This document shows, one piece after another, positions 11,642-47,800 of a stretch of 64,000 bases of DNA. Position 1 is the stretch's first letter. Each line of letters starts with the position of its first letter. This stretch comes from a virus. Lineage: Duplodnaviria > Caudoviricetes. Location: IMG/VR virus record IMGVR_UViG_3300031992_000011, one strand, 5' to 3'. The position numbers and the translations under genes were made by a program. The notes under the pieces were generated by a model. That model searched no databases and was not told the DNA's origin. It saw only the letters and a list, made by a program, of their open reading frames with translations.

Positions 11642-12538
11642 TCACCGCTTGGGTATTTTCGACAGGTCTATCTTGCGCGGATTCTCGAGCTGCCTCAACA
11701 GTTCGTCCATCCCTCTCTCGGTGTCCGTGCGGTATGTGTCGGGTTCTTTCTCTTCTGTCTCCGGTTCTGTTTCCTCCGGTTTGACTTCTTGCTTCCCTGA
11801 AGGCTTGTTGAACTTTGACAGGTCTATCTTGCGCGGATTCTCGAGCTGCTTCATCAGTGAGTCCATCCCTCTCTCGGTGTCAGTGCGGTAAACATCGTCG
11901 TCCTTCTTCGTGTCATCCTTCTTGGTGTCGTCATTCTTCATTTGCGGACCGCTTGAAGGTTTCAGAGAAGGTACCGTCATCTTTATTCCGTTCTTGGTGT
12001 CTATGCTGACCGGATCCTGAAGTTGTTGTCTCACCCGTTCCATCCTCCGTTCGGTGTCGGTCTTGTAGATGTCAGAAGAAACCCTTGGCACTCCGTCGGT
12101 TGAAATCTTCCTGAGCGCGTCGTCCGTGATTTCACTGTCCGGACCTCCGAACTGCGCGACCTTGAATACAACCGCCATGGTGTTGTCGCCGTTAGGGTTG
12201 AATTCCCCGAGACCCTTGTATATGTCAGAGGCTGGTTGGGTAAATATCTGGTCTGTCGGGTCCCACTCGCTTATCCTGTCAAGAAGGAAAAATTTCCACG
12301 AGGGCACACGCGAAGTTGTGTCCCCGTATGGCTGGAACGCCCTTATGACCGGGTTTCCCGCACTTGTCGTCCCGTATGCATACACCTCGATTATCCTGTC
12401 ACCTGTCGCTATGTCCTCCCCCTTCGAGTGATAGTTTATCAGTATCCTCCTGTGGTTGTCCAAAGCGTCATCGATGTCCTGTTCGGACACGGACTCTTCA
12501 AGAAGCACGCTCTCGAGTAGAGAACTGAGGGATTTCAT
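11642..12538 (-). CDS. WYL-domain protein with C-terminal repeats and an N-terminal LxE leader
   Basis: ILINY...RIIEVYAYG...VIRAFQ...WKFFLLDRISEW is a WYL signature; three Y(R/K)TDTER...QL repeats. Confidence 0.65.
   Translation of the reverse strand: MKSLSSLLESVLLEESVSEQDIDDALDNHRRILINYHSKGEDIATGDRIIEVYAYGTTSAGNPVIRAFQPYGDTTSRVPSWKFFLLDRISEWDPTDQIFTQPASDIYKGLGEFNPNGDNTMAVVFKVAQFGGPDSEITDDALRKISTDGVPRVSSDIYKTDTERRMERVRQQLQDPVSIDTKNGIKMTVPSLKPSSGPQMKNDDTKKDDTKKDDDVYRTDTERGMDSLMKQLENPRKIDLSKFNKPSGKQEVKPEETEPETEEKEPDTYRTDTERGMDELLRQLENPRKIDLSKIPKR
11661..11890. repeat. 74-bp intragenic direct repeat (11661-11734 and 11817-11890), third degenerate copy near 12020-12068
   Basis: Direct comparison shows 5 mismatches; encodes YRTDTERGMDxLxxQLENPRKIDLS. 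Confidence 0.9.
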
Positions 12539-12546
12539 TGTGCTCT

Positions 12547-12912
12547 TTATCTTATGACGTACTGTCCTTCTCGGACGTTTTTGGAAGTGTCCACTATCTT
12601 CTCGGTGTACGGTTCGTCCGAACTGTACAGGCTCCTGACCATCGACTGCTTTCTCGCCTCGTTGTCAAGGTCGTTACCCATTCCGCTCGCCGGATTGGTG
12701 TCGAAGTTTGAATAGTTGAACACACCCTTTGGCCCGTTGCAGTCAGGCAGCCAGTGTGTGTGCCCTCCGTGTCCGGTACCCTTGCCCTGTCTGTCGCCTG
12801 TGGCCAGCGCGTCAGGATGTGTCTCTGAATACGGGTTTTCCCTGGTATAGTCGCTTCTGACAATCTCATTGTGCCTTTCTTCTATACCTCTTTTTTCCAA
12901 ACATGATTGCAT
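12547..12912 (-). CDS. Hypothetical protein, probably late/virion (121 aa)
   Basis: Preceded by TATTTA at 12944-12949. Confidence 0.75.
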   Translation of the reverse strand: MQSCLEKRGIEERHNEIVRSDYTRENPYSETHPDALATGDRQGKGTGHGGHTHWLPDCNGPKGVFNYSNFDTNPASGMGNDLDNEARKQSMVRSLYSSDEPYTEKIVDTSKNVREGQYVIR

Positions 12913-12951
12913 ATCCTAAAAGTTGTTTTTTCCTTGTGTATGATAAATAGT

Positions 12952-13503
12952 TCATTTGACATAAGCGCGCCGCAATTCTTCGTCCACCATCCGGAGTATA
13001 TCCTCATATATGCTGTTCCCGGCGTGTGCCGAAGATTCGTAACGGACAATTTGCCCGTCGGAAACGGAACGGTTCATGTTGCCGGTGTTGAATTTTTCAC
13101 GCGTCGCTTTTGTGCTGGTTCTCTGCTTCTCGTGCGGCTTTATGTACGCGTTGTCCGCTCCGGCCGCCTTGAGCGCAGCCTTTCTGTCGTCTATCGTTTT
13201 CGTGGCGAGCCCGAGCGTGTTGTTGACCCATGTCCTCATCTCGTCGCCTCCGTTCAGTATGTACTCGTCCGACTTGTCTGAACCGTTGTAGTTGTCAAAG
13301 AAATTCTTGATGCGTTTCATCTCGTTGTACGCGATTCCGTTCTTCATTGACAGTATGTTGTTCAACCTCTTGTACCCGTCTACGGTCTTGTCGCCGTTGT
13401 ATGACGCCAATGTGGACTCAAGATGTTTCCTTATCCCGTCTCCGAGCGGAAACACCCTGTGCTTGAGTTCCTTGTTGCCTTCTGTCAAAAGTATGCGCAC
13501 CAT
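12952..13503 (-). CDS. Hypothetical protein with LxE leader (183 aa)
   Basis: Starts MVRILLTE; ends in an amphipathic helix IYEDILRMVDEELRR. Confidence 0.75.
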   Translation of the reverse strand: MVRILLTEGNKELKHRVFPLGDGIRKHLESTLASYNGDKTVDGYKRLNNILSMKNGIAYNEMKRIKNFFDNYNGSDKSDEYILNGGDEMRTWVNNTLGLATKTIDDRKAALKAAGADNAYIKPHEKQRTSTKATREKFNTGNMNRSVSDGQIVRYESSAHAGNSIYEDILRMVDEELRRAYVK

Positions 13504-13506
13504 GAT

Positions 13507-14082
13507 TCAACCTAATTTCCTTCTGAGCACTTTCTTCCACACCTCAGGCAGTGTGGACAGGTTCATGTTCTCGATAATCTTGTTCAGCACCATCGCGCAC
13601 TGCTTGTCACTGAGACCGGACGAGCGCATGGCGTCAAGAAGTACATCTGTCTTCTGCTGCACACCTTGCGGTATCTTGACAAGGTCGTCCCCTTGTTTGT
13701 TGTTCGAGTATGTGTCAAGTCCGTATCCGGTCTCGGCCGGCGCCTCGGCGCTGTCGTCGACTCCGTCGCGGTTCGTGTCGTCGTTGGCGGACTCTGACAC
13801 GGTGAAAGATTTGTCCAGATCAATGTAAACGTCAGGATCCGACGCCGTCGGGTGTCCGTACGCCATGCCGAACCGTCTTCCGTAGAACTGAGGGGTTATG
13901 TTGGCGGAAACGTCATCACCTGTCGTCGGCATTGCGGATTCAGTGCCGTCAAGTACCCCGTCGGCAGTCACGTCTTGCTGTCCACGATGGGCGTTGAACG
14001 GTGTGTCGGACAGGTATGAATAACCTGTGTCACCCATGTACTCCCTTAGTTGTTCCTCGCGCAATATGATGGTTCTCATCAT
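13507..14082 (-). CDS. Hypothetical acidic protein with LxE leader (191 aa)
   Basis: Starts MMRTIILREEQLRE. Confidence 0.75.
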   Translation of the reverse strand: MMRTIILREEQLREYMGDTGYSYLSDTPFNAHRGQQDVTADGVLDGTESAMPTTGDDVSANITPQFYGRRFGMAYGHPTASDPDVYIDLDKSFTVSESANDDTNRDGVDDSAEAPAETGYGLDTYSNNKQGDDLVKIPQGVQQKTDVLLDAMRSSGLSDKQCAMVLNKIIENMNLSTLPEVWKKVLRRKLG

Positions 14083-14094
14083 GTCCTTCTATTA

Positions 14095-14424
14095 CTACTC
14101 GTCGTCGTAGCAGTCGACGCCGTTATCCCTCAATATCTCGCTCACAACAAACAACTGCCTGCGGTTGAGGACGTCGCTGTGCTGTATCATGTAGTTGTCG
14201 TCACGGAGTCTCATGTCTCCGCACGTGTATGATATGTAACGGCTGTCATCCTCGCTCGAAGTGTATGGAACATATATCGTGTCGCCCATAACCTCATATC
14301 TCCCTTTCCTGATGGAGTTGAAGAAAATCCTTATCTCATGCTGCCATTGCTTGTCGTCAGCCTCAGACAATATTCTTGTCATCACTTTCCGCGTGATGGA
14401 TTCCACCAATTCATTATTTCTCAT
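14095..14424 (-). CDS. Hypothetical protein with LxE leader
   Basis: Start at MRNNELVESITRKVMTRILSE; TATTTA at 14446-14451. Confidence 0.7.
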   Translation of the reverse strand: MRNNELVESITRKVMTRILSEADDKQWQHEIRIFFNSIRKGRYEVMGDTIYVPYTSSEDDSRYISYTCGDMRLRDDNYMIQHSDVLNRRQLFVVSEILRDNGVDCYDDE

Positions 14425-14435
14425 TTGTCGTTCGA

Positions 14436-14451
14436 TATTTACAGATAAATA
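14436..14451. promoter_or_regulatory. Palindromic bidirectional putative late promoter TATTTA-CAGA-TAAATA
   Basis: Perfect inverted pair between divergent genes starting at 14424 (-) and 14474 (+). Confidence 0.6.
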
Positions 14452-14473
14452 GCGTTTCAACACTGATTATGCA

Positions 14474-16336: not shown

Positions 16337-16374
16337 AAGCCACCAAACTATTTATATTGAAAACGAAAGTTACA

Positions 16375-21495: not shown

Positions 21496-23343
21496 ATGGC
21501 AGCAGCAAGAGTTTTACAACTTCTTAGAAGCACAACAATTTATGACACTTTCGAACTCGCAGCGAGCGCGTTGAGAGGTCTGCAAGGTCGTAAAGACGGT
21601 GAGATCGTGTTGGCGAGGTACACACCTGTGACTGTAAACGGTGTCACAGTCGACACAGCAATCGGCGTATATCACGTTGCCGGCAATACCACAACATGCA
21701 CCGTCTTCCAAAGTTCGACAGAAATAGCGAAGAGACTGGACGACATTCAGTCGGAACTTGACGACACACAGACCGGTGCCGGTCTTGGTACTGATGGTTC
21801 TTATACCGTACCGGAAGAGAATGAGGCCGGTTTTGAGGTTCTCGGTGGTCAGAATGCCCCTGACAATCTCTATGATGCCATCATGAAACTGGCCGACGAG
21901 ATCGCCGGTATGGACTACTCATATAACACGAATGCCAGTGATACAACCGCAAGCGCGGCCGTGAACGACCGTTCAAAGGTTATCGCGTCAATCAGCGAGG
22001 TCAACGGTGACATCACTGTGGGCAGCACAGCGGCTAAGGACCTTCTCTTGACCAATTATACAAATGACGGCACAACCAATACAGGTTCAATCGTTCCTGC
22101 CGATACTGTCGAGAAGGCGTTTAACAAATTGGAGAACAAGGTTGGTGCGAACAAAATCACAAATGCAGACGGCTCAATCACTGTTACAGAACCTACCGGT
22201 TCCGCAACAACCACTGACATCAACGTCAACATAAAGACAGGTGAGAAGGTACTTCACAAGGATGGAAACGAAGGTCTGTGGACTGACATCAAGATCCAGA
22301 AGGTCATACCGACCGGAACTGCTGGCACTGACGAGATTCTCGACACGAATCTTGGTGCCAACGTCCGTGAGGCTTATCGACTGATGTCAAATAACGGAAG
22401 CGGAACCTATGTGCAACTTGGTAAGGATATCAATGTCTACAAGGACAGTTCTCTCATCAGTGTCCAACTCGGTACAATGGGAGACACACTCACCAACGAG
22501 GACGCAAACCAGAAGTCAGATGTTTCGACAATCGTTCCGGGTACAGGCGACGACGCTCTCGTGTTCGTGTACTACCTCGGTGACGAGAACAAGTACCAGA
22601 GGGCATCTATCAACGTCGAGAGTTTCCTGACAGATTCTGAATACGGTATCGGTCTTGCTGTAGAATCTGACGGAGCCGCCACAAACAGCAAGCGTGTCTA
22701 TGTCAAGAAAGACACAAATTCGGAGCAGGTTATCACTGCGTACAGCGAGAGTGGTAACACTACAGCAGATGTTCTCACAATAGGCAATGATGGTGTCAAG
22801 GTAGCGAACATCCAGGCCGCTATTGACGCTGCCGTCGGAAGGGCGCAGACAACAATCAATACCACCGTCAACAAGTCAGGTGAGACTGTTGCGGATCCTC
22901 ACATCTCGATAGCGGAGACAACTGCGGACAACGGTTCGAAGAGTTACACATTCTCAGAGACCGACATCGATTCACAGGCGAGGGCGATCGCTGCCGAGAA
23001 GGTTCTTTCTGATTCAATCAACGGAACCGGTTCTTACAACGAGACAACCGGCGTCGCCACCCCATACGCTTCACCCGCTAACGCGACATACGCAAATACA
23101 AACAATGTAAAGGGTGACATCGCCGCACTTGATGCAGCAGCCGCTGACGGTCTTAATTTGGTCACAAGCGCGAATAAAGCGATTGTCGTTGGCGCAAAGG
23201 AAAACAAGCAACAGGAACTCACACTGACACTTGACACTACGACGCAAGGAACTGGCATGGAGTTGACAAGCGTGGACAACGCTCTCACAATCACCAACGC
23301 CGGACTGTTCCTCTCAAACACTTGGGACTGTGGCACGTACTAA
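21496..23343 (+). CDS. Thr/Ala/Asn-rich tail-fibre-like structural protein (615 aa)
   Basis: ELDDTQTGAGLGTDGSY motif, C-terminal WDCGTY, TATTTA at 21452-21457. Confidence 0.65.
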   Translation: MAAARVLQLLRSTTIYDTFELAASALRGLQGRKDGEIVLARYTPVTVNGVTVDTAIGVYHVAGNTTTCTVFQSSTEIAKRLDDIQSELDDTQTGAGLGTDGSYTVPEENEAGFEVLGGQNAPDNLYDAIMKLADEIAGMDYSYNTNASDTTASAAVNDRSKVIASISEVNGDITVGSTAAKDLLLTNYTNDGTTNTGSIVPADTVEKAFNKLENKVGANKITNADGSITVTEPTGSATTTDINVNIKTGEKVLHKDGNEGLWTDIKIQKVIPTGTAGTDEILDTNLGANVREAYRLMSNNGSGTYVQLGKDINVYKDSSLISVQLGTMGDTLTNEDANQKSDVSTIVPGTGDDALVFVYYLGDENKYQRASINVESFLTDSEYGIGLAVESDGAATNSKRVYVKKDTNSEQVITAYSESGNTTADVLTIGNDGVKVANIQAAIDAAVGRAQTTINTTVNKSGETVADPHISIAETTADNGSKSYTFSETDIDSQARAIAAEKVLSDSINGTGSYNETTGVATPYASPANATYANTNNVKGDIAALDAAAADGLNLVTSANKAIVVGAKENKQQELTLTLDTTTQGTGMELTSVDNALTITNAGLFLSNTWDCGTY

Positions 23344-23368
23344 TCAGTACTCATCAATTCGGCAATAT

Positions 23369-23396
23369 AAAACGAGGGGCGAAAACCCCTCGTTTT
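23369..23396. terminator. Bidirectional intrinsic terminator
   Basis: AAAACGAGGGG-CGAAAA-CCCCTCGTTTT between convergent genes. Confidence 0.85.
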
Positions 23397-23429
23397 GTTG
23401 TTTATTGTTCCCCTTTTTTGGTGCTATTG

Positions 23430-24233
23430 CTAATCAATCCACGGGAACTCCCTGACTATGGCGTTGACGAAGTGGAACTTCTGCAGTTTCTTCATCGCGA
23501 TGCACCTGACCTCCGAGCGCCAGTCGTGTGTCCTGATGAAGTCCACAACTTTTTCCCGTCCTCTCAAATTGTCGTCCACCTTTATCTTGTACTCCGCGGA
23601 GTATCTCTCGCCGTCCGAAAGTATCTTGCCGCAGCTTCCGTCACCCCAAAGGCACACGCGCACATCGAACGGCGCGTCGTCATACCCATTCGAATCATTC
23701 CGCACGAAGTTCACTCGCTTGAGGTTGGTCTTTGGCCTTTCGTTTGTTCCTCCTCCCTCAGGCCGCCTGTACACGTTGAAGCAGCAGTGCAGTTTGCGTC
23801 CGCTGTATGTCTCTTCGCCGAGGTCGATCGACTCTATCAGGTCGAATTCGTACAGCGACTGTGTGTTCCATAGTTGGCTGATAGGAAGTATCATCGCCAC
23901 GTAGTCACCGCACGATACAGCCTTCTTGAAGAATTTCTGCGCCAGGTTCATCCGGCTGCCGTAAGGAGGGTTTCCGAGCGTGAGCCGTCCCTTCTTGTAC
24001 GGCATCTCATATGACAGGTAGTCGGCTTCTATGACGCGTGGGTCGTCAGTTTCCGGTCTGATGTCAATCCCTATGTCCACGCGCACGTTGTCGCTGTGCA
24101 TGAACGCTCCGTCACCGCAGCTTGGTTCCACGACCTCTGTGACCGCGCCCATGTCAACGCACGCTGTCAGTATGCCGAGACATCTGTCCACGACATGACT
24201 CGGTGTGTAGTATTTGTCGTCATTCAGTTTCAT
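23430..24233 (-). CDS. DNA N6-adenine methyltransferase
   Basis: DKYYTP, VEPSCGDGAF (SAM binding) and GNPPYG (catalytic). Start at MKLNDD; host-type -7 element TATCTTTG at 24254-24261. Confidence 0.85.
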   Translation of the reverse strand: MKLNDDKYYTPSHVVDRCLGILTACVDMGAVTEVVEPSCGDGAFMHSDNVRVDIGIDIRPETDDPRVIEADYLSYEMPYKKGRLTLGNPPYGSRMNLAQKFFKKAVSCGDYVAMILPISQLWNTQSLYEFDLIESIDLGEETYSGRKLHCCFNVYRRPEGGGTNERPKTNLKRVNFVRNDSNGYDDAPFDVRVCLWGDGSCGKILSDGERYSAEYKIKVDDNLRGREKVVDFIRTHDWRSEVRCIAMKKLQKFHFVNAIVREFPWID

Positions 24234-24317
24234 ATGCTCAAAAATTTTTACTGCAAAGATAAAGAAAATTATTGACACTGAAAAGTTAAATTATATTTAT
24301 ATGAAAATATCATCTAT

Positions 24318-24788
24318 ATGTACAAAAGAAGGAGTGTGACGTTAAGTGAAAGTCGTCTCAGACGTCTTATCTCAGAGGCGGTCAGAAAAGCACTGACGGA
24401 GAGTAATGAGGACACCAGATGGTACAACAATCAGGAGTCGGATCCCGGTGTCGGCAGTGAGTTGGATTTTTCTCCGCAGTTGTGGACAGAAATCAGATTC
24501 GTGCAGGGCGGAGATGATGACTACGAGGAAATTGACCGTATGTTCTGCGGCGACGATGATGTGTACTGTGAGGGCAACTCGCAGCCTGTGATAGAGTATT
24601 TGGCGCAGTGGGATGACGGCGAGGGAAACGTCGTCGAGGACGAGCCGAGGATAGCGAGGAACGACACCGTTTACGATGACGAGAACGGAGAATACATATT
24701 AAGGTACAACTCGTCGGTAGGTGGATGTTACCTGCTCTACAGGAAAGCGTCACCGCAAGAAGTTGACTGGTATCAGAACAATCGTTGA
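24318..24788 (+). CDS. Acidic hypothetical protein with LxE leader
   Basis: VTLSESRLRRLISEAVRKALTES; TATTTA at 24294-24299. Confidence 0.8.
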   Translation: MYKRRSVTLSESRLRRLISEAVRKALTESNEDTRWYNNQESDPGVGSELDFSPQLWTEIRFVQGGDDDYEEIDRMFCGDDDVYCEGNSQPVIEYLAQWDDGEGNVVEDEPRIARNDTVYDDENGEYILRYNSSVGGCYLLYRKASPQEVDWYQNNR

Positions 24789-29216: not shown

Positions 29217-31310
29217 ATGGTTATCATGTTGTCAGAAAACAGTTTTGACCGCAAGGTGAACAAATTCCTGAGCGGTTACACGGGCGGTGGGTTCTCGTCG
29301 GTGCGCGAGTTCCTGCTTAAGGGACTCTACGGGAAATTACCTGAGATGAGATGCATCAAAAATCCAGAGACAGTTTCTGACGTGGTCCGATGGTTTTTCA
29401 ACCCGGACGGAAGCGTGAAGAATGCCGAATATGTGAATGATTTCCGTGCGATACTCAAGTCGCTCATAGATAAAGACGGGGTTGACAAGATACAGAATTT
29501 CACGCACGGTTTTGAACTTCTGTCATTCATGAAAACTTTCGGACATCTGACACCGCGCGAAAAGAACCATATCCCGCGCAACTCGTCAAGAAAGTCAGTA
29601 AAGGCGGACAACGGTTACACTGTAACAAGGATAGATTCGTTCGATGAGATGACGCGTGCGCCGTTCGGCGACAGCTGGTGCATCGGTCAAGACCGCGAAT
29701 GGTGGGACGAATTCGCTGACGAGTCGGTTTCCACTGTATATATGGTGGTGAGGTCTGACGCAGCGCAAGCAAGGCCGTCCACAATGATGGATGACGACGA
29801 AGAGGTCACCGCAGACGAGTATTTCTCCGGAATTGACAGTTACACAGATTCGCTGCGTAGCGGAAAGTGGGGGTCTCTCGGTTCAGGAAGGTATCCGTAC
29901 GACAGTTACGGCATGTCCGCGATGGTTGTGATAAGTTACGAGAATGGTATGCATGAAGTGTGGTCGAGGTACAATATGAGTGGAAAGGACGGAGACTATC
30001 TGAGCAAGGGTCAGATGTCCAAACTACTCGGAGCACCATTCGAGACTCTTTTCCCGTACGTCAACTACACCATCAGCGAAAGTGCGCTGAACGAAAGCGA
30101 ATACGCCTACCATCTGACCGGCAGGGCGTCGGACGGGAGCAGAATCAACCATGACATGCGCCCTTACGGTAGCGAAGGCAGAGTGATGATGACGCAAGGC
30201 AGGGACACCGGCCATTTCGGGAGCGGGACTTACTTCTCCACATATACGTTCGGGGGATATGAAGGTCTGCCAAAATACGGAGAAGGAAACAACGATCCGC
30301 ATTTCATACAGATCAAGGACGGCGTGTACCGTGTCGACCTGGACTTGTACAAGAACCTGTACAGGGTAGAGAGCGAGGACGAGGGGGACATTCTGTTCTC
30401 GACACTCAAGTTGCTCAATGAATTCTTTAACCGCGTGACGGACGAGGATTTTGTCGGCAAAAAAGAACCTAACTACAACAACGCCGGTATATACCAGGTC
30501 GTCAGACGGAACTGTTCGGTGCTCGGACTGAAGTGCCCGTCATACTATGAACTGACAAGGATGGCGCAGTCGCACAAGGGTGTGCAGTCGTTCTCGACCC
30601 TTTTCATGGAATGGAACGGTTTTAATGGCGTTAACGTATGCGGACTGTACAGGTTTGACAACACGACGCATGGTTCTGTGATATATGACCTGTCGAAGAC
30701 GGGGTCGGCAATAGTGCCCGTCAAGAAGGCGAAATACTTTAGTCCTAAAGTGACATCACGGTACGGTTACGTCAACACTGACGGGAAATATGACGATGAT
30801 GAGATGCTTGCCCTCACATCCCCATATTACATTCCGGAAGAAGAAACTTTCAAGAAAATGCCTTTCAACAGACAGGTGAGAATATTGAAAAACATGATCA
30901 GTAACGGCAAGGTTGTCCGTTTTTGGACGTTTGAATCGTGCTTTTCTGACAAACTTAAGAAACTATATCTTCAGTTGGTGTTCAACAACCGCGACAAGTC
31001 GCGATACGGTGAAATGGTCGGAAGTGTCATGTTGGGAGGTGATGATAAGTACAGATGGCGTAAATATATCGTGGAGAATGGTCTGTACTATTGGGCCGGA
31101 TATTACAACAACCGAGTGTCAGGTCTTACAGCCATAATGTCCGAACTTGACGACTGGAACCTTGATGACGACGAGAACAAGAAACAGAACCTTGCCAACT
31201 TCAAGAACCTCATGCGCTATGTGAAACGTCCGTTGGAACTTGATGAACTCACAGCAATCCACGAATACACAGGCGTGTGGTTTGACTATGACGGCAATCC
31301 TGAAAAATGA
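29217..31310 (+). CDS. Bipartite late protein; second module ADP-ribosyltransferase-like (tentative)
   Basis: TATTTA at 29206-29211; internal ISESALNESE linker followed by AYH..., GHFGSGTYFST and GFNGVNV. Confidence 0.5.
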   Translation: MVIMLSENSFDRKVNKFLSGYTGGGFSSVREFLLKGLYGKLPEMRCIKNPETVSDVVRWFFNPDGSVKNAEYVNDFRAILKSLIDKDGVDKIQNFTHGFELLSFMKTFGHLTPREKNHIPRNSSRKSVKADNGYTVTRIDSFDEMTRAPFGDSWCIGQDREWWDEFADESVSTVYMVVRSDAAQARPSTMMDDDEEVTADEYFSGIDSYTDSLRSGKWGSLGSGRYPYDSYGMSAMVVISYENGMHEVWSRYNMSGKDGDYLSKGQMSKLLGAPFETLFPYVNYTISESALNESEYAYHLTGRASDGSRINHDMRPYGSEGRVMMTQGRDTGHFGSGTYFSTYTFGGYEGLPKYGEGNNDPHFIQIKDGVYRVDLDLYKNLYRVESEDEGDILFSTLKLLNEFFNRVTDEDFVGKKEPNYNNAGIYQVVRRNCSVLGLKCPSYYELTRMAQSHKGVQSFSTLFMEWNGFNGVNVCGLYRFDNTTHGSVIYDLSKTGSAIVPVKKAKYFSPKVTSRYGYVNTDGKYDDDEMLALTSPYYIPEEETFKKMPFNRQVRILKNMISNGKVVRFWTFESCFSDKLKKLYLQLVFNNRDKSRYGEMVGSVMLGGDDKYRWRKYIVENGLYYWAGYYNNRVSGLTAIMSELDDWNLDDDENKKQNLANFKNLMRYVKRPLELDELTAIHEYTGVWFDYDGNPEK

Positions 31311-35413: not shown

Positions 35414-35509
35414 ATGATGATAGTATCTTTCTGTAAATATCTGAAAAAACATAACACCCGTTTGTTCTCTTCCACTATTTATGTGTACAGTAAAATCTCT
35501 ATAAATAAA

Positions 35510-35752
35510 ATGGAAAGAATTAGTGAAGCACGTCTTAGGAAGATAGTGAAGGAAAGTGTAAGGCATGCGCTGAATGAAGGGACAACAAACCAGGAAGACT
35601 TCAACATATGCGACGAGATATTCGACATGTGGACAGGTAGGCAAGTCTGGGAGTTCATCTACAACATGCTGAACAGTGACCAGATACACGAGATAGCGGA
35701 AGAGCTTGTCGACGCCGGTTTCTACGACGACGGATACGACACGGAAGAATGA
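35510..35752 (+). CDS. Small acidic protein with LxE leader (80 aa)
   Basis: MERISEARLRKIVKESVRHALNEG; TATTTA at 35476-35481. Confidence 0.75.
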   Translation: MERISEARLRKIVKESVRHALNEGTTNQEDFNICDEIFDMWTGRQVWEFIYNMLNSDQIHEIAEELVDAGFYDDGYDTEE

Positions 35753-35771
35753 ATCACACCAGCAGTCACGG

Positions 35772-36173
35772 ATGGCACAGCAGTTTTTCATAACAAAGGG
35801 TTCCACACTCCCGAGTTTACGTCTTGAGGCGATTCATGACGGGAGGCATGATTTCCGCAACCTTTATATAGCGCTTCAGAACGCCGACGTCACATTCTCG
35901 ATGTCGGAACAGTCGACCGGAATAAAGCGGATAGCGAACGCAAAGGCGTATGTGGTCGAGAAGGCGGATTCAGGATGCGAGGAGGCATACGTGCTGGAAT
36001 ACAGATGGAACAAGAGGGACACGGCGGAATCCGGCACTTACATCGGACAGTTCCACATCGTGTTCAACGACGACCTTGTGATGGATGGCATGTCCTTCCC
36101 GAAGGGGGAGATGTACGTCCCCATCGCGGAGGATCTGCTGATAACCGTCAGCGACGCCGGAATCAAAATTTAA
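35772..36173 (+). CDS. BppU N-terminal-like (baseplate/fibre adaptor) protein
   Basis: FFITKGSTLP.L...NADVTFSM...YRW..RDT..SG.YIGQF.I.F. Confidence 0.55.
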   Translation: MAQQFFITKGSTLPSLRLEAIHDGRHDFRNLYIALQNADVTFSMSEQSTGIKRIANAKAYVVEKADSGCEEAYVLEYRWNKRDTAESGTYIGQFHIVFNDDLVMDGMSFPKGEMYVPIAEDLLITVSDAGIKI

Positions 36174-36189
36174 TAACCGCCAACGACAA

Positions 36190-36732
36190 ATGAAGACAAA
36201 ACTGACGCAAAAACAAAAGTCTGTCCTCAATGAGGTGCGTTCGATGATGGACAAACTCGAGAATAACCCTTATGGCCGGACAATCGACAATCCTGAATCA
36301 GACGGTTTCGGACGGTTTAATCCGGGTAATGGACGGCCGGATATTGACAACCCGTCATTGCCGCGCATCAAGAACAGACCCACAAACGAAAAAGTTGACG
36401 AGAAACTGATCGCAGACATCAGCGAGTCTGTCATGCGTGCGCTGAACGAAATGAACTACAACGGCATCGACGACATAATCGAAACCGCATATAATGACTA
36501 CGACTGCGGGCAGAAATACTGGGAGATTGTGCGCATGCTGCGCAAGAAAGTGGAACATGGCACCGAACTGGACCTTGGCGTACTATACAAGTCGTCAATG
36601 ATGGACAAATATTGCCGTTTCTGCTACCGTAAACTTGGAATAGGAAGACGAGACATAAATCCTAACAGTTCGCCTCAGATGTTCAAGAGGACGATGGCGA
36701 AACGAATGATAGATGACGTTTACAATTATTAA
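36190..36732 (+). CDS. Hypothetical protein with N-terminal and internal LNE motifs (180 aa)
   Basis: SVLNEVRSMM and IADISESVMRALNEM. Confidence 0.75.
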   Translation: MKTKLTQKQKSVLNEVRSMMDKLENNPYGRTIDNPESDGFGRFNPGNGRPDIDNPSLPRIKNRPTNEKVDEKLIADISESVMRALNEMNYNGIDDIIETAYNDYDCGQKYWEIVRMLRKKVEHGTELDLGVLYKSSMMDKYCRFCYRKLGIGRRDINPNSSPQMFKRTMAKRMIDDVYNY

Positions 36733-36741
36733 TTAAAAGAA

Positions 36742-37014
36742 ATGAGCAAGATAACAAACGGCCTGATTGAGCGATTCGGCACAGACAAAGTGCTTCACTT
36801 CCTTGGAGGGGCTTGGATAACGGCACTGTTCGGCGTGCTCGGATGGTGGGGTTTGATCGCAAGTTTTGTCGCCGTGTTCGTGTTGTCATATATCAAGGAG
36901 GAATTTCTTGACGACAAATTTGACAAGGTCGACATACAGGCGGCGCTGATTGGAAGTGCCGCTAGCGCTGTCATGTACAGCATAATCAGACTGATTTACA
37001 GTCTATTCGCTTAA
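36742..37014 (+). CDS. Small membrane protein (VanZ-like DKxxH motif)
   Basis: DKVLHF followed by three hydrophobic segments. Confidence 0.65.
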   Translation: MSKITNGLIERFGTDKVLHFLGGAWITALFGVLGWWGLIASFVAVFVLSYIKEEFLDDKFDKVDIQAALIGSAASAVMYSIIRLIYSLFA

Positions 37015-40120: not shown

Positions 40121-41392
40121 ATGGAAAACAACGGAACATATGTGATATTCACGGCGCAGAACGTGGACGATCCGGCGGAACTCATGCGCCGCTATCCGAG
40201 CGCGCTGCCGAACAAATACTATCATCACTCGACGAACCGTTTCGGCAGGCAGCCTTTTGACGACCGCGAGGGAGAACCGATGCGGTTGCACATAACAGGG
40301 AGGCTCGTAACAGACAGAGTGGACGCTCTTGTCGTGGACAATCCTAACAGTGACAACGAAATACCGCACATAACGCTCGCAACCGCTGACGGAGTGAAAC
40401 CTTTCGCCAGCAACGCGGAACTCAAGGCGCACTATGCGGACATAGAACCGCTTGACGACTATGTGGACACAACATTCCGCAACAACATGTCGCGCAGCAG
40501 AAAAAATGAATCATTCCTTCGTCCGTCGATGCCGTTGAACGAGAAAAAGGGGGGTCACAACTACGCAGGACGCGACGACGAGTTCTACACGCGTCCGGAA
40601 GACATCGAACGGGAGTTGTCAAACTATGACCTCAGCGGAAAGGTCGTGTACTGCAACTGCGACGTCCCTTCAATGTCGGAATTTTACAAGTTCTTCAAGA
40701 ACAACTATGACTCCCTGAGATTAAGTGGACTTGTCGCCACCTACTACTCCGACACTCCATGTATGTACTGGTTCAACGGAGACTCTGAAAGGAAAATTCC
40801 GATAAAATCGGGACGCTTCCAAGACAATGAAAGGATTATGCGGATGTGTGACGTGGTGGTCACAAACCCGCCTTTCTCAGATTCAATGCCACATCAACTT
40901 GTGAATATGGCAAGGAAAATGGGTAAAGATGTAATCATTGTTGGGCCGTTGGACATGGCGCGGAGGAACGACATGTTCGAATTGGTAAAAAGCGGAAAAC
41001 TTAACTACGGACACAGTCCCATAAACAGATACAGAAGAGACGGAGAAAAATCACGGACAGCGCCGACCGCTTGGTGGACCACATTTCCGGTTGAACGCGG
41101 AAATTATTCCACAGGAAAGTCATACAATCCTTCAAGATACAGAAAATACGACAATTATGACGCTATCGAGTGTCCGCGTTACAGTGATTTACCTGACGAT
41201 TATGACGGAAAAATAGGGGTTCCTTGGAGGTTTCTCGGAAAACTTGACAGGCGCCAATATGATGTCGTAGACAAGATAAGGCCAAGACTTGACGGCAAGA
41301 ATCTGGATACAAGACTGATAATCCAACGGAAGAGCGTCACCGAAGCGCTTGTCAGAAGGATAACTGAAATGATAATGAGGAAACTTTTTTGA
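40121..41392 (+). CDS. Fusion of a 2H phosphoesterase-like domain and an EcoRI-family adenine methyltransferase
   Basis: N-terminal HHST...PHITLA, then DEFYT..DIE.EL, GKVVYCNCD, VVTNPPFS, KYDNYDAI and PDDYDGKIGVP; TATTTA at 40109-40114. Confidence 0.75.
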   Translation: MENNGTYVIFTAQNVDDPAELMRRYPSALPNKYYHHSTNRFGRQPFDDREGEPMRLHITGRLVTDRVDALVVDNPNSDNEIPHITLATADGVKPFASNAELKAHYADIEPLDDYVDTTFRNNMSRSRKNESFLRPSMPLNEKKGGHNYAGRDDEFYTRPEDIERELSNYDLSGKVVYCNCDVPSMSEFYKFFKNNYDSLRLSGLVATYYSDTPCMYWFNGDSERKIPIKSGRFQDNERIMRMCDVVVTNPPFSDSMPHQLVNMARKMGKDVIIVGPLDMARRNDMFELVKSGKLNYGHSPINRYRRDGEKSRTAPTAWWTTFPVERGNYSTGKSYNPSRYRKYDNYDAIECPRYSDLPDDYDGKIGVPWRFLGKLDRRQYDVVDKIRPRLDGKNLDTRLIIQRKSVTEALVRRITEMIMRKLF

Positions 41393-43209: not shown

Positions 43210-43220
43210 GGTACTGTGGA

Positions 43221-43565: not shown

Positions 43566-43619
43566 CTTACCTCGCTATTTATTTAGAAATAACAGCAATT
43601 AAAGATTTATCAACAAGAT

Positions 43620-46600
43620 ATGGGAAACAACAACAGCGCAAGACAGACGCATGTCAGCCCGGGTGTCTACACCAAGGAGACTGATTTGACTTATGCGTCA
43701 AAATCGCTTGGGATTACCACTCTTGGTGTGGCCGGCGAGACTGTGAAAGGTCCAGCCTTCCAACCGATGATGGTCGAGAATTGGCGCGAATTCCAACGCT
43801 TGTTCGGAGGTACCGACGCCTCTAAGTTCAGAGGCAGCCAGTATCCGAAGTACGAGTTGCCTTATATCGCGCAGTCATACCTCAAGCAGTCGAACCAGAT
43901 GTACGTGTGCCGAGTGCTCGGACTTTCTGGTGTCAACGCCGGACCTGCGTGGATAGTTTCTGCTGCAGCAAACGCAATCAAGACAAAGGACTACGACAAG
44001 ACGGTCATCTCAGTCATCCGCTCAAGAGGAGAACACGAGAAAGCCCACAAGGTGAAAGACGCTAATCCGGAGCAGGGAATATGCGAAGACGTTTATCAGT
44101 TCGACGGCATCAAGTATTATGCGAAGGATGTCATGCTGATACCGAGCGCCGACCTCACATACAACGACGGATGTAATGACTCATTCGATTCGAAGACGGG
44201 TGATTTCACTGTGGACGCGATGAATTATGGGCGTTTCACTATCCTTGTCCTTGTCGACGACAGCGAGGAATCGAAGACAAAGTGGGAAAACTACAAGATT
44301 AACGCCAAAACAATGCTCGACGATTCGTCGACAACCGAGGAACAGTGGGCACAGTTCAGGGATACAGTGTCCAAAGACGAGATTGTCTCAGTCTACTCAG
44401 TATCACTCAATCCGGGCGAGAAAAACTATATCCTCAATATTCTTGGAGGGGATCCCGAGAACGGTGACGCGGAGATTTATGTCGAGGAGCTCTACGACGT
44501 TGCGCTCAAGCAGCTCATCGAGGGCGGCGACATTGACGCAATCAACCACGAGCTCGTCCATTTCGAGAACAGGAACATCATACCGAAGTACAAGGCGGTC
44601 AATGACGTATTGACCGAGATTGAGGACACTCTCACAAGAAAGGACATCGGCAAGAGATTCCTTTATGTCGGAGCGCTTTCGGTCGACGAGGACGGAAAAC
44701 CTATACCTGTCCACAAGACCACGGACAACGGTGTGACGTACACGGAATGCGCAGGACAGGAGGGTGGAATATACAAAGTTGTCGCATACACAAAGGACAA
44801 CGGCACCAGGGAATATTACTACGTGCTCAGCCAAGACAAGGGAAAACAAGACGAGATACTTGGCGACTATGAGCAGCATCTCGAGAACAAAGACAACCCC
44901 GGAGTCTTTGAGGAGGCGGTAAGGTCCATGTCCGACAACACATACTACGTGATGGCGAAAGACAAGGACAACAATCTCAAGGTGACGGCGATAACCATCG
45001 ACATGAACAACTACAAGGAGGAATACCGATATGCATCGACACCTTGGATTGTGTCCGAACTGAAAGGTTCGGCTAACTATGTAGAACTGAAGACACTGTT
45101 CAGGTTCCACACCATTTCTGACGGAAACATGTCCAACACAGAGGTCAAGGTGTCAATCGAGAACATCAACCCGACATACGGAACTTTTGACGTTGTTGTC
45201 AGGGACTTCTACGACACAGACGCGTCGCCTGTCGTGTATGAGAGATTCCGCGGCGTCAACCTCGTGCCTGGCGACAAGAACTACATCGCCATGAGGATCG
45301 GATCGTCGGACGAGAAATATGTGACAGTCTCTTCTTACATCACTGTCGAAGTGAACGAGAACGACGTGACCAAGACTTCAATACCGGCCGGTTTCCTCGG
45401 TTATCCAGTCAGAAATTATGCCGGATTCGGACTCTACAAGTCGGAATTCAGCGACGGCGAGAAGCTGAAGAACCCGTATCTGAGGTACAACACCAACGTG
45501 GACGACGACATCCGCATCGGAAAGCAGTACTTTGGACTTTCTGACCTCACCGGAATTGACGAGGACGTGCTTAAGTACAAAGGGTTTGAGGCATACAACG
45601 GAATCCCGACCGGTTACACGCCCGGTTTCCACCTCGACTCACGAATTTTCAGCGGAAAACCGGACGAGAACGGTGTCGTCGAGCTGGATGGCATCAAGCA
45701 GACCGTCACGGTCGACGGTGTCGCCGGATACGAGTGGGTGACAGTCGGCGCCGGCAATGTGACCGCTTTCGGTGAAGAACCGAGAATTGGCACTGACGAC
45801 GTGATGATGAACACAATCTACGAGGACAAGCGCTACCGCAAGTTCACGCTTGCATTCTACGGAGGATGGGACGGATGGGACTATTACCGCACGGCACGAA
45901 GCAACGGTGACGAGTTCAAATATCTCCGATACAAGGGGAACATCAATCTCGAAAGCGGCGAAGGCGACAACTTCAGCGTCATAAGAGAACCTGAACTCTA
46001 CAACTTTGACAAGGACGAGAAGGTGATCAACTCAGACTGGTACGCCTACATGTCGGCAATCAGGGCATTCGCAAACCCGAGAGACTATGACATCAACGTG
46101 TTCGCCACACCGGGTATCGACTATGTCAACAACAATTCGCTCGTCGGCGAGACAATCACGATGATTGAAGAAGAGAGGGCTGACTCGATATACGTCGTCA
46201 CCACGCCAGACAAACCGTTCGGCGCAAGCGACTCGCGTGCCGACATGTACAGTCCTTCGGACGCAGTCGACAATCTCGAGGATTCGGAGATAGACAGCAA
46301 CTACGCGTGCACGTACTACCCGTGGGTCAAATACTTCGATCCTGACAACTCTGTCTACCTGTACTTGCCGCCGACAAGGGACGTCGTGAAGAACATGGCA
46401 CTCACGGACAACACAAGGTTCCCGTGGTTCCCTGCCGCAGGATGGAACAGGGGCGATTTGGACACGACCGCAGTCAGTCCGAAGATGTCACTGAAACTGA
46501 AGGAGCAGGATGAACTCTATGCAGGACGCATCAACTTCATCAACAAGTTCGCACAGGACGGAATGAAGATTTGGGGCGACAACAACCTTCAGGTCGTCGA

Positions 46601-46922
46601 GAGCCAGCTGAACAAGATTTCGAAACGCAGGCTGTTGCTGCACATACGCAAACTCTGCGCAATCGCAGGAATCGGACTCATTTTCGACCCGAACGACAAC
46701 ACGACCAAGCAGTCATTCGAGAGTGCGGTCAAACCGATACTTGACAATGTCCTCAGCAACAGGGGCATCATTGATTGGAGACTTGAGATTGACGACAGCC
46801 AGGAGGCAAGGGACAGACTGGAACTTCCTTGCAAGATATATCTCAAACTCACCCCGAATTTGGAATATATCACAATCGACTTCATTGTCACTCCGAGCGG
46901 TGTTTCGTTCGACGACATTTGA
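43620..46922 (+). CDS. Contractile tail sheath protein (1100 aa)
   Basis: VSPGVYTKETDLT, GETVKGPAF.P, YYPWV, WFPAAG..RG, IWG..NLQ...LNKI..RRLL and LEYITIDF; TATTTA at 43576-43581. Confidence 0.95.
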   Translation: MGNNNSARQTHVSPGVYTKETDLTYASKSLGITTLGVAGETVKGPAFQPMMVENWREFQRLFGGTDASKFRGSQYPKYELPYIAQSYLKQSNQMYVCRVLGLSGVNAGPAWIVSAAANAIKTKDYDKTVISVIRSRGEHEKAHKVKDANPEQGICEDVYQFDGIKYYAKDVMLIPSADLTYNDGCNDSFDSKTGDFTVDAMNYGRFTILVLVDDSEESKTKWENYKINAKTMLDDSSTTEEQWAQFRDTVSKDEIVSVYSVSLNPGEKNYILNILGGDPENGDAEIYVEELYDVALKQLIEGGDIDAINHELVHFENRNIIPKYKAVNDVLTEIEDTLTRKDIGKRFLYVGALSVDEDGKPIPVHKTTDNGVTYTECAGQEGGIYKVVAYTKDNGTREYYYVLSQDKGKQDEILGDYEQHLENKDNPGVFEEAVRSMSDNTYYVMAKDKDNNLKVTAITIDMNNYKEEYRYASTPWIVSELKGSANYVELKTLFRFHTISDGNMSNTEVKVSIENINPTYGTFDVVVRDFYDTDASPVVYERFRGVNLVPGDKNYIAMRIGSSDEKYVTVSSYITVEVNENDVTKTSIPAGFLGYPVRNYAGFGLYKSEFSDGEKLKNPYLRYNTNVDDDIRIGKQYFGLSDLTGIDEDVLKYKGFEAYNGIPTGYTPGFHLDSRIFSGKPDENGVVELDGIKQTVTVDGVAGYEWVTVGAGNVTAFGEEPRIGTDDVMMNTIYEDKRYRKFTLAFYGGWDGWDYYRTARSNGDEFKYLRYKGNINLESGEGDNFSVIREPELYNFDKDEKVINSDWYAYMSAIRAFANPRDYDINVFATPGIDYVNNNSLVGETITMIEEERADSIYVVTTPDKPFGASDSRADMYSPSDAVDNLEDSEIDSNYACTYYPWVKYFDPDNSVYLYLPPTRDVVKNMALTDNTRFPWFPAAGWNRGDLDTTAVSPKMSLKLKEQDELYAGRINFINKFAQDGMKIWGDNNLQVVESQLNKISKRRLLLHIRKLCAIAGIGLIFDPNDNTTKQSFESAVKPILDNVLSNRGIIDWRLEIDDSQEARDRLELPCKIYLKLTPNLEYITIDFIVTPSGVSFDDI

Positions 46923-46947
46923 TATCGTACAAACGGAAAAAAGAAAG

Positions 46948-46984
46948 AAAATTGACGGGTGACGAATGTCATCCGTCAATTTTT
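46948..46984 (+). terminator. Intrinsic terminator after the sheath gene
   Basis: AAAATTGACGGGTGAC-GAAT-GTCATCCGTCAATTTT. Confidence 0.85.
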
Positions 46985-47061
46985 GTGACGTGATGGACTG
47001 TTTATTGGGAAAATGACAAAGAACGAACATAAAAAATAGCAGGGTCAACAGATATATAGAC

Positions 47062-47094
47062 AAAAAAAGGTCGGATGAAAACACATCCGACCTT
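47062..47094 (-). terminator. Intrinsic terminator of the small membrane gene
   Basis: AAGGTCGGATG-N6-CATCCGACCTT with a T-tract on the minus strand. Confidence 0.8.
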
Positions 47095-47124
47095 CTGTTT
47101 TTTGTGATTCACGCTTATCGTCTA

Positions 47125-47379
47125 TCAACCCTTCGCCAGGAACATGATTCCACCGAATGCACCACCGGCAATAGCGCCGATAAGTTCGACGATAATGTAT
47201 TTCAGTCTGTCGCTTGTCCACTCTTCACGTCCCCACTCATAAGACCCGACAGTAGCGACACCTGTGTAGATACCAGCTACGATGGCAGCGCCAACAGACT
47301 GGCCGATGAGGAAAGTCAGGATTCCGCACACTATAGCGATAAGAGCCGGAACCAGGAATTTAAACAAATAATCCATCAT
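47125..47379 (-). CDS. Small membrane protein, about 3 TM segments (84 aa)
   Basis: Hydrophobic; own promoter (47412-47441) and terminator. Confidence 0.75.
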   Translation of the reverse strand: MMDYLFKFLVPALIAIVCGILTFLIGQSVGAAIVAGIYTGVATVGSYEWGREEWTSDRLKYIIVELIGAIAGGAFGGIMFLAKG

Positions 47380-47446
47380 TGTTTTAGAAAAAATTAAAAA
47401 TTATCATAGTGAATATAGTGACCGTCCGCAATGGTTGTCAACAGCA

Positions 47447-47800
47447 TCACTTTCCTTTGCCTATTTCGACGGACTTGTCAAGTATCTGCCAAATCTTCTT
47501 GAGGACGTCATACTGCGGTGATTCGGGCGTGTTCGCCAGTTTGGCGAGCCCCTGTATGGCGATCTGCCTTATTTGGTTCATATAACCGGTGACTTCCGGG
47601 TCGGCCGGTGCCTGCTGAACTTCTTCCGCGTCGTCTTCATCGTCCATGCTTGGCATCCAGTCATACCCCGGACCGTTCTCATAAGGAACAGGACCCTCTC
47701 CATCTTGTCCGAACACGACACTTTCGAGCGTGAGCGACTTTTTCCCGTCGAGCATATGGTTCATCTCATTGATGAGATTCTCATTGTGTCTTTTCTTCAT
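47447..47800 (-). CDS. Hypothetical protein with LxE leader (117 aa)
   Basis: NENLINEMNHML...LTLES; TATTTA at 47823-47828. Confidence 0.75.
   Translation of the reverse strand: MKKRHNENLINEMNHMLDGKKSLTLESVVFGQDGEGPVPYENGPGYDWMPSMDDEDDAEEVQQAPADPEVTGYMNQIRQIAIQGLAKLANTPESPQYDVLKKIWQILDKSVEIGKGK

What the first reader, a model, noticed from the sequence alone, without database searches (positions are those of the whole stretch)
11642..47800. Dispersed family of late genes sharing a putative capsid-loading and protease-cleavage signal: a modular injected-cargo system
Seen: about ten otherwise unrelated proteins share an amphipathic segment, usually ending in (L/I)-x-E. Instances: 24318 VTLSESRLRRLISEAVRKALTE; 35510 ISEARLRKIVKESVRHALNE; 36190 SVLNE and internal IADISESVMRALNE; 14424 LVESITRKVMTRILSE; 12538 LSSLLESVLLEE; 14082 IILREEQLRE; 13503 ILLTE; 47800 LINE...LTLE; 29217 MLSE and internal ISESALNE; 40121 internal KNES...PLNE and C-terminal VTEALVRRITEMIMRKL. 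Each is directly preceded by, or in an operon behind, the TATTTA motif that also precedes the sheath, neck, fibre and tape-measure genes. Several sit antisense among early genes. Established: the T4 prohead protease gp21 cleaves after (I/L)-x-E, and T4 internal proteins and Alt are packaged into the head, processed and injected. Inference: the segment is a portable scaffold-binding and cleavage tag that loads diverse effector domains (WYL, ART-like, 2H phosphoesterase, methyltransferase) into the capsid. At domain junctions it would turn fusions into polyproteins cut during head maturation.
Basis: partly seen in the sequence, partly recalled or inferred. Interest (0 to 1): 0.82.

Follow-up and report, generated by a model that had tools for sequence, protein, structure and literature searches.

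The report
Shared head-loading tag on phage proteins
Two, perhaps three, small late genes of this uncultured T4-like giant phage start with a roughly 28-residue helix that thousands of unrelated proteins in related phages also carry and that ends in a sequence matching the head protease's cutting rule, so it is most likely a "load into the capsid, then cut off" tag like the one phage T4 uses; seven of the ten listed examples are chance.

Summary
Against a family profile, only 24318 (38 bits), 35510 (40 bits; a + strand 80-aa gene) and an internal half-copy in 36190 (15 bits) are members. The other seven instances score like shuffled sequence, and a bare [LI]xE occurs in the first 35 residues of 37-42% of all proteins.

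The real motif is an undescribed module (consensus MNKKQVIRLNESQLRQIVKESVKRVLNE). It was found in 6,671 protein clusters, mostly N-terminal, sometimes internal or repeated, and always followed by unrelated sequence. It holds three near-invariant hydrophobic-x-Glu sites, and conservation stops right after the last one.

Every motif-bearing viral contig that is at least 82% complete has a T4 gp23-type capsid protein and a gp21-type protease. Motif genes share the CTATTTAT promoter-like box of structural genes. They often sit beside the protease and scaffold genes, and the motif resembles the scaffold's N-terminal helix.

Best reading (0.55): a T4-CTS-like capsid-targeting, protease-removed leader on swappable cargo. 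Neither packaging nor cleavage has been shown. The WYL, ART, 2H and methyltransferase "effectors" hang on the unsupported instances.

The scan has noted analogous leaders, with different sequences, on other T4-like phage DNA.

The parts
24294..24299 (+). TATTTA late-promoter-like box, 24 nt upstream of the gene 24318
24318..24401 (+). Leader, aa 1-28 of the 156-aa protein, ending in L-T-E
   Evidence: 38.3 bits to the family profile. Low-confidence AF2 model shows a helix at aa 12-32.
24402..24788 (+). Cargo: a linker, then a conserved ~100-aa beta-rich domain of unknown function
   Evidence: phrog_23219 matches aa 54-139. Sixteen homologues carry the same domain with variant leaders, with no leader, or followed by a further motif and another module.
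35475..35482 (+). CTATTTAT late-promoter-like box, ~30 nt upstream of the gene 35510; heads the + strand run 35510-37014
35510..35578 (+). Leader, aa 1-23 of the 80-aa protein, ending in L-N-E
   Evidence: 40.4 bits
35579..35752 (+). Cargo: a 57-aa, very acidic tail with no homologue in relatives
35772..36173 (+). Conserved core gene (133 aa, unknown function) beside the neck-like gene. Non-homologous motif genes flank its orthologues in three lineages, so the site looks like an insertion hotspot.
   Evidence: orthologues in G005, G003, L013. Motif genes at G005 149549 and L013 15383.
36190..36732 (+). 180-aa protein with an internal half-copy of the motif (nt 36409-36450, ending L-N-E) between a low-complexity N-terminal part and a C-terminal domain
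   Evidence: 14.8 bits, above all shuffles
14095..14424 (-). Listed instance not supported: chance LxE. It does sit behind a CTATTTAT box.
   Evidence: -1.3 bits
13507..14082 (-). Listed instance, borderline. A core gene; its G003 and G005 orthologues begin with the first half of the motif.
   Evidence: -0.5 bits
12952..13503 (-). Listed instance not supported; a core gene
11642..12538 (-). Listed instance not supported; a core gene with no Pfam hit
47447..47800 (-). Listed instance not supported; a core gene found next to the sheath gene in all relatives
29217..31310 (+). Listed instance not supported; 697 aa with no family or PDB match, so the ART-like claim is untested
40121..41392 (+). Listed instance not supported by the profile. 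EcoRI-type adenine methyltransferase with a weak 2H-like N-terminal part. Its C-terminal helix resembles, by eye only, the C-terminal partial copies seen in relatives.
   Evidence: no alignment

Best explanation
The motif is a capsid-targeting, protease-removable leader. It works like the capsid targeting sequence (CTS) of the phage T4 internal proteins, but it is about three times longer and unrelated in sequence.

Proposed mechanism, all inferred. Late in infection the tagged proteins are made from TATTTA-type promoters together with the virion proteins. The short strand plus amphipathic helix of the leader resembles the N-terminal helix of the gp22-like scaffold protein. It docks the protein into the scaffolding core while the gp23-type shell forms around it. 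The gp21-type (Peptidase S77) prohead protease then cuts after the three conserved hydrophobic-x-Glu sites. This frees the cargo and chops the leader into ~9-residue pieces that can leave the prohead. The cargo stays in the head and enters the host with the DNA.

Because the leader is a fixed joint, recombination can place any small gene behind it or string several modules together.

In this window the system is represented by 24318, 35510 and, as a half-copy, 36190.
For: 1. Architecture. A leader conserved in 6,671 cluster representatives is followed by unrelated sequence (mean column identity 8% across 76 proteins). Median cargo length is 104 aa.

2. Cut-site pattern. The Glu residues at model positions 11, 20 and 28 are 98-100% conserved, each two residues after an aliphatic residue. 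[LIVM]xE is present at the leader's end in 340 of 349 copies, and conservation collapses at the next residue.

3. Right machinery. All five relatives found through the sheath gene, and every motif-bearing IMG/VR record at least 82% complete, encode a Peptidase_S77 protease and a gp23-type capsid protein. Their capsid proteins keep [LI]xE followed by A[TS] just before the conserved core while the middle residue varies. T4 gp23 loses a 65-residue N-terminal piece (PMC9958956).

4. Late expression signal. The CTATTTAT box is shared with the protease, sheath, fibre and neck genes. In G005, six of the 22 genes that carry it are motif genes.

5. Location. Motif genes lie between the portal and protease genes, or beside the scaffold gene, in G004, G018, G011, G005 and G014 (and G010, weakly). 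This is where T4 keeps its core-protein genes 67 and 68.

6. Scaffold likeness. hhalign of the motif against the scaffold alignment gives score 24.1 and P 0.0013, at scaffold residues ~30-47. None of 150 column shuffles reaches that score (maximum 21.0). Eight other families from the head-gene region score 9.7-14.8.

7. Modularity. The cargo domain of 24318 occurs with variant leaders, without a leader, and ahead of a further motif plus another module. One module changes sides between homologues.

8. T4 precedent. Diverse internal proteins share only a CTS that loads them into the scaffolding core (PMC3012670, PMC9958956). Multiple cuts within propeptides help to clear them from the head (PMC5694885).
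Against: - No virion proteomics, no cleavage assay and no cultured phage with this motif exists. tblastn of the leader against 50,697 GenBank phage records found nothing.
- The window's own head module is outside the window and could not be fetched. The machinery is therefore shown only in relatives whose sheath proteins are 51-63% identical.
- The leader is 28 residues against ~10 in T4 and shares no sequence with it.
- About a quarter of the first 120 hits carry the motif internally. Copies also lie at extreme C-termini, which a purely N-terminal propeptide model does not need.
- The likeness to the scaffold is modest (hhalign probability 19%).
- Clustering near head genes is weak in G003, the closest complete relative.
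- The statistics on cut sites come from sequences that were selected by the profile itself.
Confidence: 0.55

Rival explanations
1. The helix is a structural or oligomerisation module of head-core (scaffold-like) proteins. The tagged proteins help to build or size the large prohead and are degraded or left behind, rather than being cargo delivered to the host.
For: Likeness to the scaffold's N-terminal helix. Motif genes sit inside the head module. The motif also occurs internally and at C-termini.
Against: There are thousands of unrelated, small downstream parts, which differ even between close relatives. That is unlike essential structural proteins. The two window genes have no orthologues in any relative.
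Confidence: 0.15
2. The leader is a recognition tag for some other shared partner: a modifying enzyme, chaperone, unfoldase or degradation machine (for example a phage ClpXP), or an export route. It has nothing to do with the capsid.
For: A shared N-terminal tag need not be a capsid signal. Four of five complete relatives encode ClpP. Terminal positions would suit a degron.
Against: G004 has 9-12 copies of the motif but no ClpP. Motif genes are dispersed with no constant neighbour other than head genes. Internal repeated copies do not suit a degron. The three invariant hydrophobic-x-Glu sites match the specificity of the head protease.
Confidence: 0.12
3. The module is conserved mainly as a recombination joint, or by descent from one ancestral gene whose C-terminal parts diverged. 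The peptide has no common function.
For: In some lineages a conserved ~35-nt A-rich stretch lies upstream of the start codon. It is read in frame as ENNQEIKENRN in fused forms. Modules shuffle at the joint.
Against: Selection acts on the peptide. Codons differ at 7 of 11 identical residues between the two window copies (52% nucleotide identity). Conservation extends across genomes of 32-50% GC. The downstream parts differ in length, composition and domain content.
Confidence: 0.08
4. The strand-plus-helix is the start of a ribbon-helix-helix-like DNA-binding or antitoxin element, related to Pfam PF25734 (RelB_like_antitoxin).
For: 30 of 76 family members give sub-threshold matches to PF25734 over profile positions ~2-31. 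The AF2 model shows a short strand followed by a helix (low confidence).
Against: No protein or genome reaches the 27-bit cut-off; the best scores are 24.3 and 19.3 bits. The second helix that such a fold needs is not conserved, because conservation stops at the LxE. Thousands of unrelated late proteins acting as repressors is implausible.
Confidence: 0.05

Closest known systems
Phage T4 capsid targeting sequence (CTS) on internal proteins IPII and IPIII, with gp21 processing of IPI, Alt, gp67 and gp68
   Same: A short N-terminal leader is the only thing shared by very diverse small proteins. It ends in hydrophobic-x-Glu. The phage has a gp21-type protease, a gp22-like scaffold and a gp23-type shell. 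The cargo genes vary between relatives (PMC3012670, PMC9958956).
   Different: 28 residues against ~10, with no sequence likeness to the T4 leader (T4 sequence from my own knowledge). Three conserved cut-type sites instead of one. Seven to fifteen copies per genome in most complete relatives and thousands of cargo types. Internal, repeated and C-terminal copies occur. It resembles the scaffold's own helix. No experiment exists.
Long N-terminal propeptides of head and ejection proteins in phiKZ-like giant phages (SPN3US, 201phi2-1)
   Same: The propeptides are removed by a related prohead protease after Glu and contain several cut sites. Paralogues share identical N-termini. A targeting role has been proposed (PMC5694885).
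   Different: Those use S/A/G-x-E sites, are often over 100 residues long, and belong to a few paralogous families. They are not one portable tag on unrelated proteins, and no gp22-like scaffold is known there.
Encapsulin cargo-loading peptides
   Same: A short portable peptide directs unrelated cargo into an HK97-fold shell (from my own knowledge).
   Different: Those peptides are usually C-terminal, bind the shell directly and are not cleaved. They are not part of a virus.
Pfam PF25734 RelB_like_antitoxin
   Same: Weak likeness over a strand plus the first helix.
   Different: Never reaches the family cut-off. The rest of that domain is absent.

Membership tests
T4-type CTS / internal-protein system (functional class) | One N-terminal leader shared by otherwise unrelated proteins | tested here: met
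   92 of the first 120 hits are N-terminal. In the window this holds for 24318 and 35510.
T4-type CTS / internal-protein system (functional class) | Leader ends in the prohead-protease site, (L/I)-x-E | tested here: met
   [LIVM]xE at the leader's end in 340 of 349 copies (LxE in 291). Conservation ends there. The window copies end in LTE and LNE.
T4-type CTS / internal-protein system (functional class) | Phage encodes a gp21-family protease, a gp22-like scaffold and a gp23-type capsid protein | tested here: inconclusive
   Met in all relatives that are at least 82% complete. The window's own head module lies outside the 64 kb and could not be fetched.
T4-type CTS / internal-protein system (functional class) | Expressed with the late (virion) genes | tested here: inconclusive
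   A promoter-like CTATTTAT/TATTTA box is shared with structural genes. No transcript data exist.
T4-type CTS / internal-protein system (functional class) | Sequence homology to the T4 leader | tested here: not met
   The consensus shares only the final hydrophobic-x-Glu with the T4 leader as I recall it. tblastn of the leader against GenBank phages, T4 relatives included, found nothing.
T4-type CTS / internal-protein system (functional class) | Protein is packaged in the head, the leader is cleaved, and the cargo is injected | not testable with these tools
   Needs virions or proteins.
Pfam PF25734 RelB_like_antitoxin | Score at or above the curated cut-off of 27 bits | tested here: not met
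   Best protein score 24.3 bits. 0 of 5 genomes are over the cut-off.

The most novel reading that the evidence does not exclude
The leader is a mimic of the scaffold protein's own N-terminal helix, and it lets any protein co-assemble into the prohead core. Together with the three protease sites it forms a plug-in joint. At this joint gut and rumen jumbo phages swap, and chain into cleavable polyproteins, more than 6,000 different small cargo proteins. That would make the motif a sequence handle for cataloguing the injected (probably anti-defence) proteins of a whole uncultured phage clade.
Probability: 0.35. Interest if true: 0.8.

Novelty: new variant of a known kind. Interest (0 to 1): 0.64.

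Why it matters
If the reading holds, one 28-residue profile picks out, from raw metagenomes, thousands of proteins that a clade of uncultured ~350-kb T4-like phages packs into its heads and delivers with its DNA. T4's own example (IPI* against the GmrSD nuclease, PMC3012670) suggests that many of these would be inhibitors of host defences. It would also give a testable rule for how cargo is recruited (likeness to the scaffold helix) and a ready-made tag for loading foreign proteins into large capsids. The motif is absent from Pfam, PHROGs and NCBIfam, so these proteins are at present all "hypothetical".

Tried and rejected
**Reaching the window's own genome**
- No whole genome is held.
- An exact 50-mer from the window's start is not in the JGI metagenome contigs or in IMG/VR.

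**Searches that found nothing**
- The search for related loci with the 24318 protein found no relatives in IMG/VR.
- tblastn of the 32-aa leader against GenBank phages gave no match.
- Pfam, PHROGs and NCBIfam have no family for the motif. The PDB sequence search found nothing.
- The ESM Atlas gave only unnamed viral clusters below the score that counts.

**Folding**
- AF2 of 24318 without an alignment has mean pLDDT 46, too poor for a fold search.

**Ideas dropped**
- My first thought, that the motif also occurs in crAss-like phages, found no support. All IMG/VR contigs with it look like fragments of ~350-kb T4-like genomes.
- Plain profile search ranks the scaffold only 43rd of ~900 proteins. 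Only the profile-profile comparison with controls gave a signal.
- The ClpXP-degron idea weakened because G004 lacks ClpP.
- A lineage-specific profile did not rescue any weak window instance.
Full report
**What the window is.** The window is a 64-kb piece of an uncultured giant myovirus. Its 1,100-aa sheath protein matches T4 gp18-type sheaths. Seventeen IMG/VR contigs, the longest 217-373 kb, have sheaths 51-63% identical. Replication genes lie on the - strand: polymerase, a DnaQ-like exonuclease, a helicase and methyltransferases. Structural genes lie on the + strand: fibres, a neck-like adaptor, the sheath, baseplate hub and wedge. The protein of 24318 is recorded on a 330-kb contig.

**Checking the observation.** Two of the ten listed segments are clearly alike. 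The leaders of 24318 and 35510 share 11 of 20 residues without gaps, and 7 of those 11 use different codons, so the likeness is selected at the protein level. The 35510 gene is an 80-aa ORF on the + strand, not part of the long - strand ORF that overlaps it.

A two-sequence profile at once found the same N-terminal motif in relatives. From these I built profile A1 and later a 96-sequence profile. Against the latter, 35510 scores 40.4 bits, 24318 scores 38.3 bits and the internal segment of 36190 scores 14.8 bits, all above every shuffle. The other seven listed genes score between -3.5 and -0.5 bits or give no alignment, like shuffled versions of themselves. A lineage-specific profile rescued none of them.

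A bare [LI]xE in the first 35 residues is found in 37% of window proteins and 38-42% of proteins in two related genomes. So those seven instances carry no information. Five of the seven (11642-12538, 12952-13503, 13507-14082, 47447-47800, and the neighbour 12547-12912) are core genes conserved across the clade. The three real members have no orthologue in any relative. Only the 14082 family hints at kinship: its G003 orthologue begins with a clean first half of the motif.

**The promoter-like box.** TATTTA occurs 24 times against 13.7 expected. The extended CTATTTAT occurs 6 times against 0.65 expected, and every copy lies upstream of a gene. The box sits 7-44 nt ahead of three fibre genes, the sheath gene, the neck-like gene, a 1,344-aa tail or baseplate gene, and both strong motif genes. 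36190 lies in the run of genes behind 35510.

In relatives the same box precedes the protease, sheath, fibre and neck genes. In G005, six of the 22 genes that carry it are motif genes, out of about 14 motif genes among 427 genes. That the box is a late promoter is an inference from the company it keeps.

**What the motif is.** The family consensus is MNKKQVIRLNESQLRQIVKESVKRVLNE.
- The word-indexed search found 226 or more proteins.
- The exhaustive search found 6,671 cluster-50 representatives at E of 0.001 or better.
- 92 of the first 120 hits carry the motif at the N-terminus. The rest carry it between domains or several times.
- What follows is unrelated: mean column identity is 8% over 76 proteins, and no shared Pfam domain appears.
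- Median cargo length is 104 aa. The spacing between repeated copies has a median of 91 aa, so chained forms look like strings of the same-sized modules.

Three Glu residues are 98-100% conserved, each two positions after an aliphatic residue (I/L-N-E, V/I-x-E, L-x-E). Conservation collapses at the residue after the third.

No Pfam, PHROG or NCBIfam model covers the motif. The nearest is PF25734, which never reaches its cut-off.

**Where the motif lives.**
- Complete relatives hold 7-15 copies each.
- All 21 IMG/VR contigs recovered through the motif are rated by CheckV as fragments of ~350-kb genomes. Every one that is at least 82% complete has a gp23-type capsid protein and a Peptidase_S77 (gp21-type) protease, as do the five relatives found through the sheath.
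- In T4 the gene order is 20-67-68-21-22-23. These phages have portal, two small genes, protease, a ~500-aa acidic scaffold and the capsid protein in the same order.
- In G004, G018, G011, G014 and G010 motif-bearing genes, or genes with clearly motif-like N-termini, are wedged between the portal side and the protease or scaffold. In G005 one sits directly upstream of the scaffold and capsid genes.
- In the window, the motif genes 35510 and 36190 flank a conserved 133-aa core gene beside the neck-like gene. Non-homologous motif genes flank that gene's orthologues in G005 and G004 too.

**Link to the head machinery.** The capsid proteins of eight relatives keep [LI]-x-E followed by A-[TS] just ahead of the conserved core, while the middle residue varies (Y, N, R, S). 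T4 gp23 loses its 65-residue N-terminal piece to gp21 (PMC9958956). The T4 site reads L-T-E|A in the T4 sequence. That gp21 cuts after (L/I)-x-E is established knowledge that I did not re-derive.

All eight scaffold proteins have, at residues ~30-50, a helix of the form S-L-K-x-L-L-x-E-x-V-K-x-x-L-R-E followed by an acidic tract. Profile-profile comparison aligns this helix with the second half of the motif (score 24.1, P 0.0013). None of 150 column-shuffled motifs reaches that score (mean 11.9, maximum 21.0). Eight other families from the same head-gene region score 9.7-14.8. This is suggestive, not proof.

**Modularity, seen on the window's own cargo.** The ~100-aa domain of 24318 (aa ~54-156, phrog_23219) has 16 cluster-level homologues. 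Most begin with variant leaders of the same family, separated from the domain by linkers of 0-90 residues. Many have an extra K-L-N-E just before the domain. Three lack a leader. Three continue after the domain into a further full or partial motif, which in two of them is followed by a different module. One module sits before the domain in one protein and after it in two others. The motif thus behaves as a joint at which modules are exchanged.

**Most likely mechanism.** It is a T4-CTS-like system: late synthesis, docking of the leader into the scaffolding core, cuts by the S77 protease at the three sites, and cargo kept in the head and delivered with the DNA.

Shown here:
- the motif, its spread and its boundary;
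- the promoter-like box;
- the co-occurrence with the T4-type head module and the adjacency to it;
- the module shuffling.

Inferred: late timing, docking, cleavage and injection. T4 provides the precedent. [quoted passage not shown] The CTS is ~10 residues long and also carries foreign proteins into the core (PMC9958956). In giant phages, multiple cuts within propeptides are thought to help clear them from the head (PMC5694885).

**Rivals.**
- A purely structural core role fits the scaffold likeness, but not the turnover and diversity of the cargo.
- Another partner (an enzyme, or ClpXP) cannot be excluded. However, G004 has many copies and no ClpP, and no constant neighbour other than head genes was seen.
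- A recombination joint without peptide function is contradicted by the codon evidence.
- A ribbon-helix-helix element fails the PF25734 threshold and lacks the second helix.

**Verdict.** The finding points at something real and undescribed, but in this window it rests on two genes and a half-copy, not ten. The "effector" list (WYL, ART-like, 2H, methyltransferase) is attached to chance matches. The class is a new variant of a known kind (the T4 CTS and internal proteins).

The scan has noted analogous leaders, with different sequences, on other T4-like phage DNA (e1-3862018, e1-1066390, e1-5826867). I did not check those AI notes. One note (e1-127136) is a warning that a shared tag can serve another enzyme.

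Noticed in passing
window 12943-12950, 14445-14452, 16348-16355, 35475-35482, 43575-43582, 47822-47829: In relatives the late-promoter-like box extends to CTATTTATA, which is the reverse complement of the T4 late promoter consensus TATAAATA(G). Relative to the genes it is therefore TATTTATA, not TATAAATA.
   Followed up: partly
G005 22353-24155 (L019); also G006 and G011 (L091 7379-9205): The prohead protease ORF is 600-622 aa instead of ~240. The S77 domain is split into two parts by an insert of about 370 residues, which may be an intein or an inserted domain.
   Followed up: no
L057, L060, L062-L065, L067, upstream of position 1501: In one sub-lineage a conserved ~35-nt A-rich stretch lies directly before the leader's ATG. 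When the upstream ORF has no stop it is read in frame as ENNQEIKENRN, which gives fusions of an N-terminal 'RVSNH' domain of unknown function, the leader and a variable tail.
   Followed up: partly
G003 162431-162958, G005 243315-243845 and 252753-253886, G010, G014: The relatives encode a full-length ClpP. G005 also has a ClpX-like ATPase, judged by eye. G004 has no ClpP.
   Followed up: partly
window 47844-48419: A homing (HNH-type) endonuclease gene sits between the conserved gene next to the sheath gene and the baseplate genes.
   Followed up: no
whole window compared with G003 and G005: The window has ~50% GC, whereas its closest complete relatives have 32% and 39%. Yet protein-level synteny of the structural genes is kept, which suggests a host of quite different base composition.
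   Followed up: no
window 41336-41386; G005 115901-116209 (C-terminus), G005 149549-150910 (C-terminus), P0003 (C-terminus), L092 5168-5395: Partial copies of the second half of the motif recur at the extreme C-terminus of proteins in relatives. The C-terminal helix of the window's methyltransferase resembles them by eye but not by profile.
   Followed up: partly
P0273, P0275 and P0276 (homologues of the 24318 cargo): A ~50-aa 'GFKCVN...' module lies after the conserved domain in two proteins and before it in a third, so the module order is permuted between homologues.
   Followed up: no
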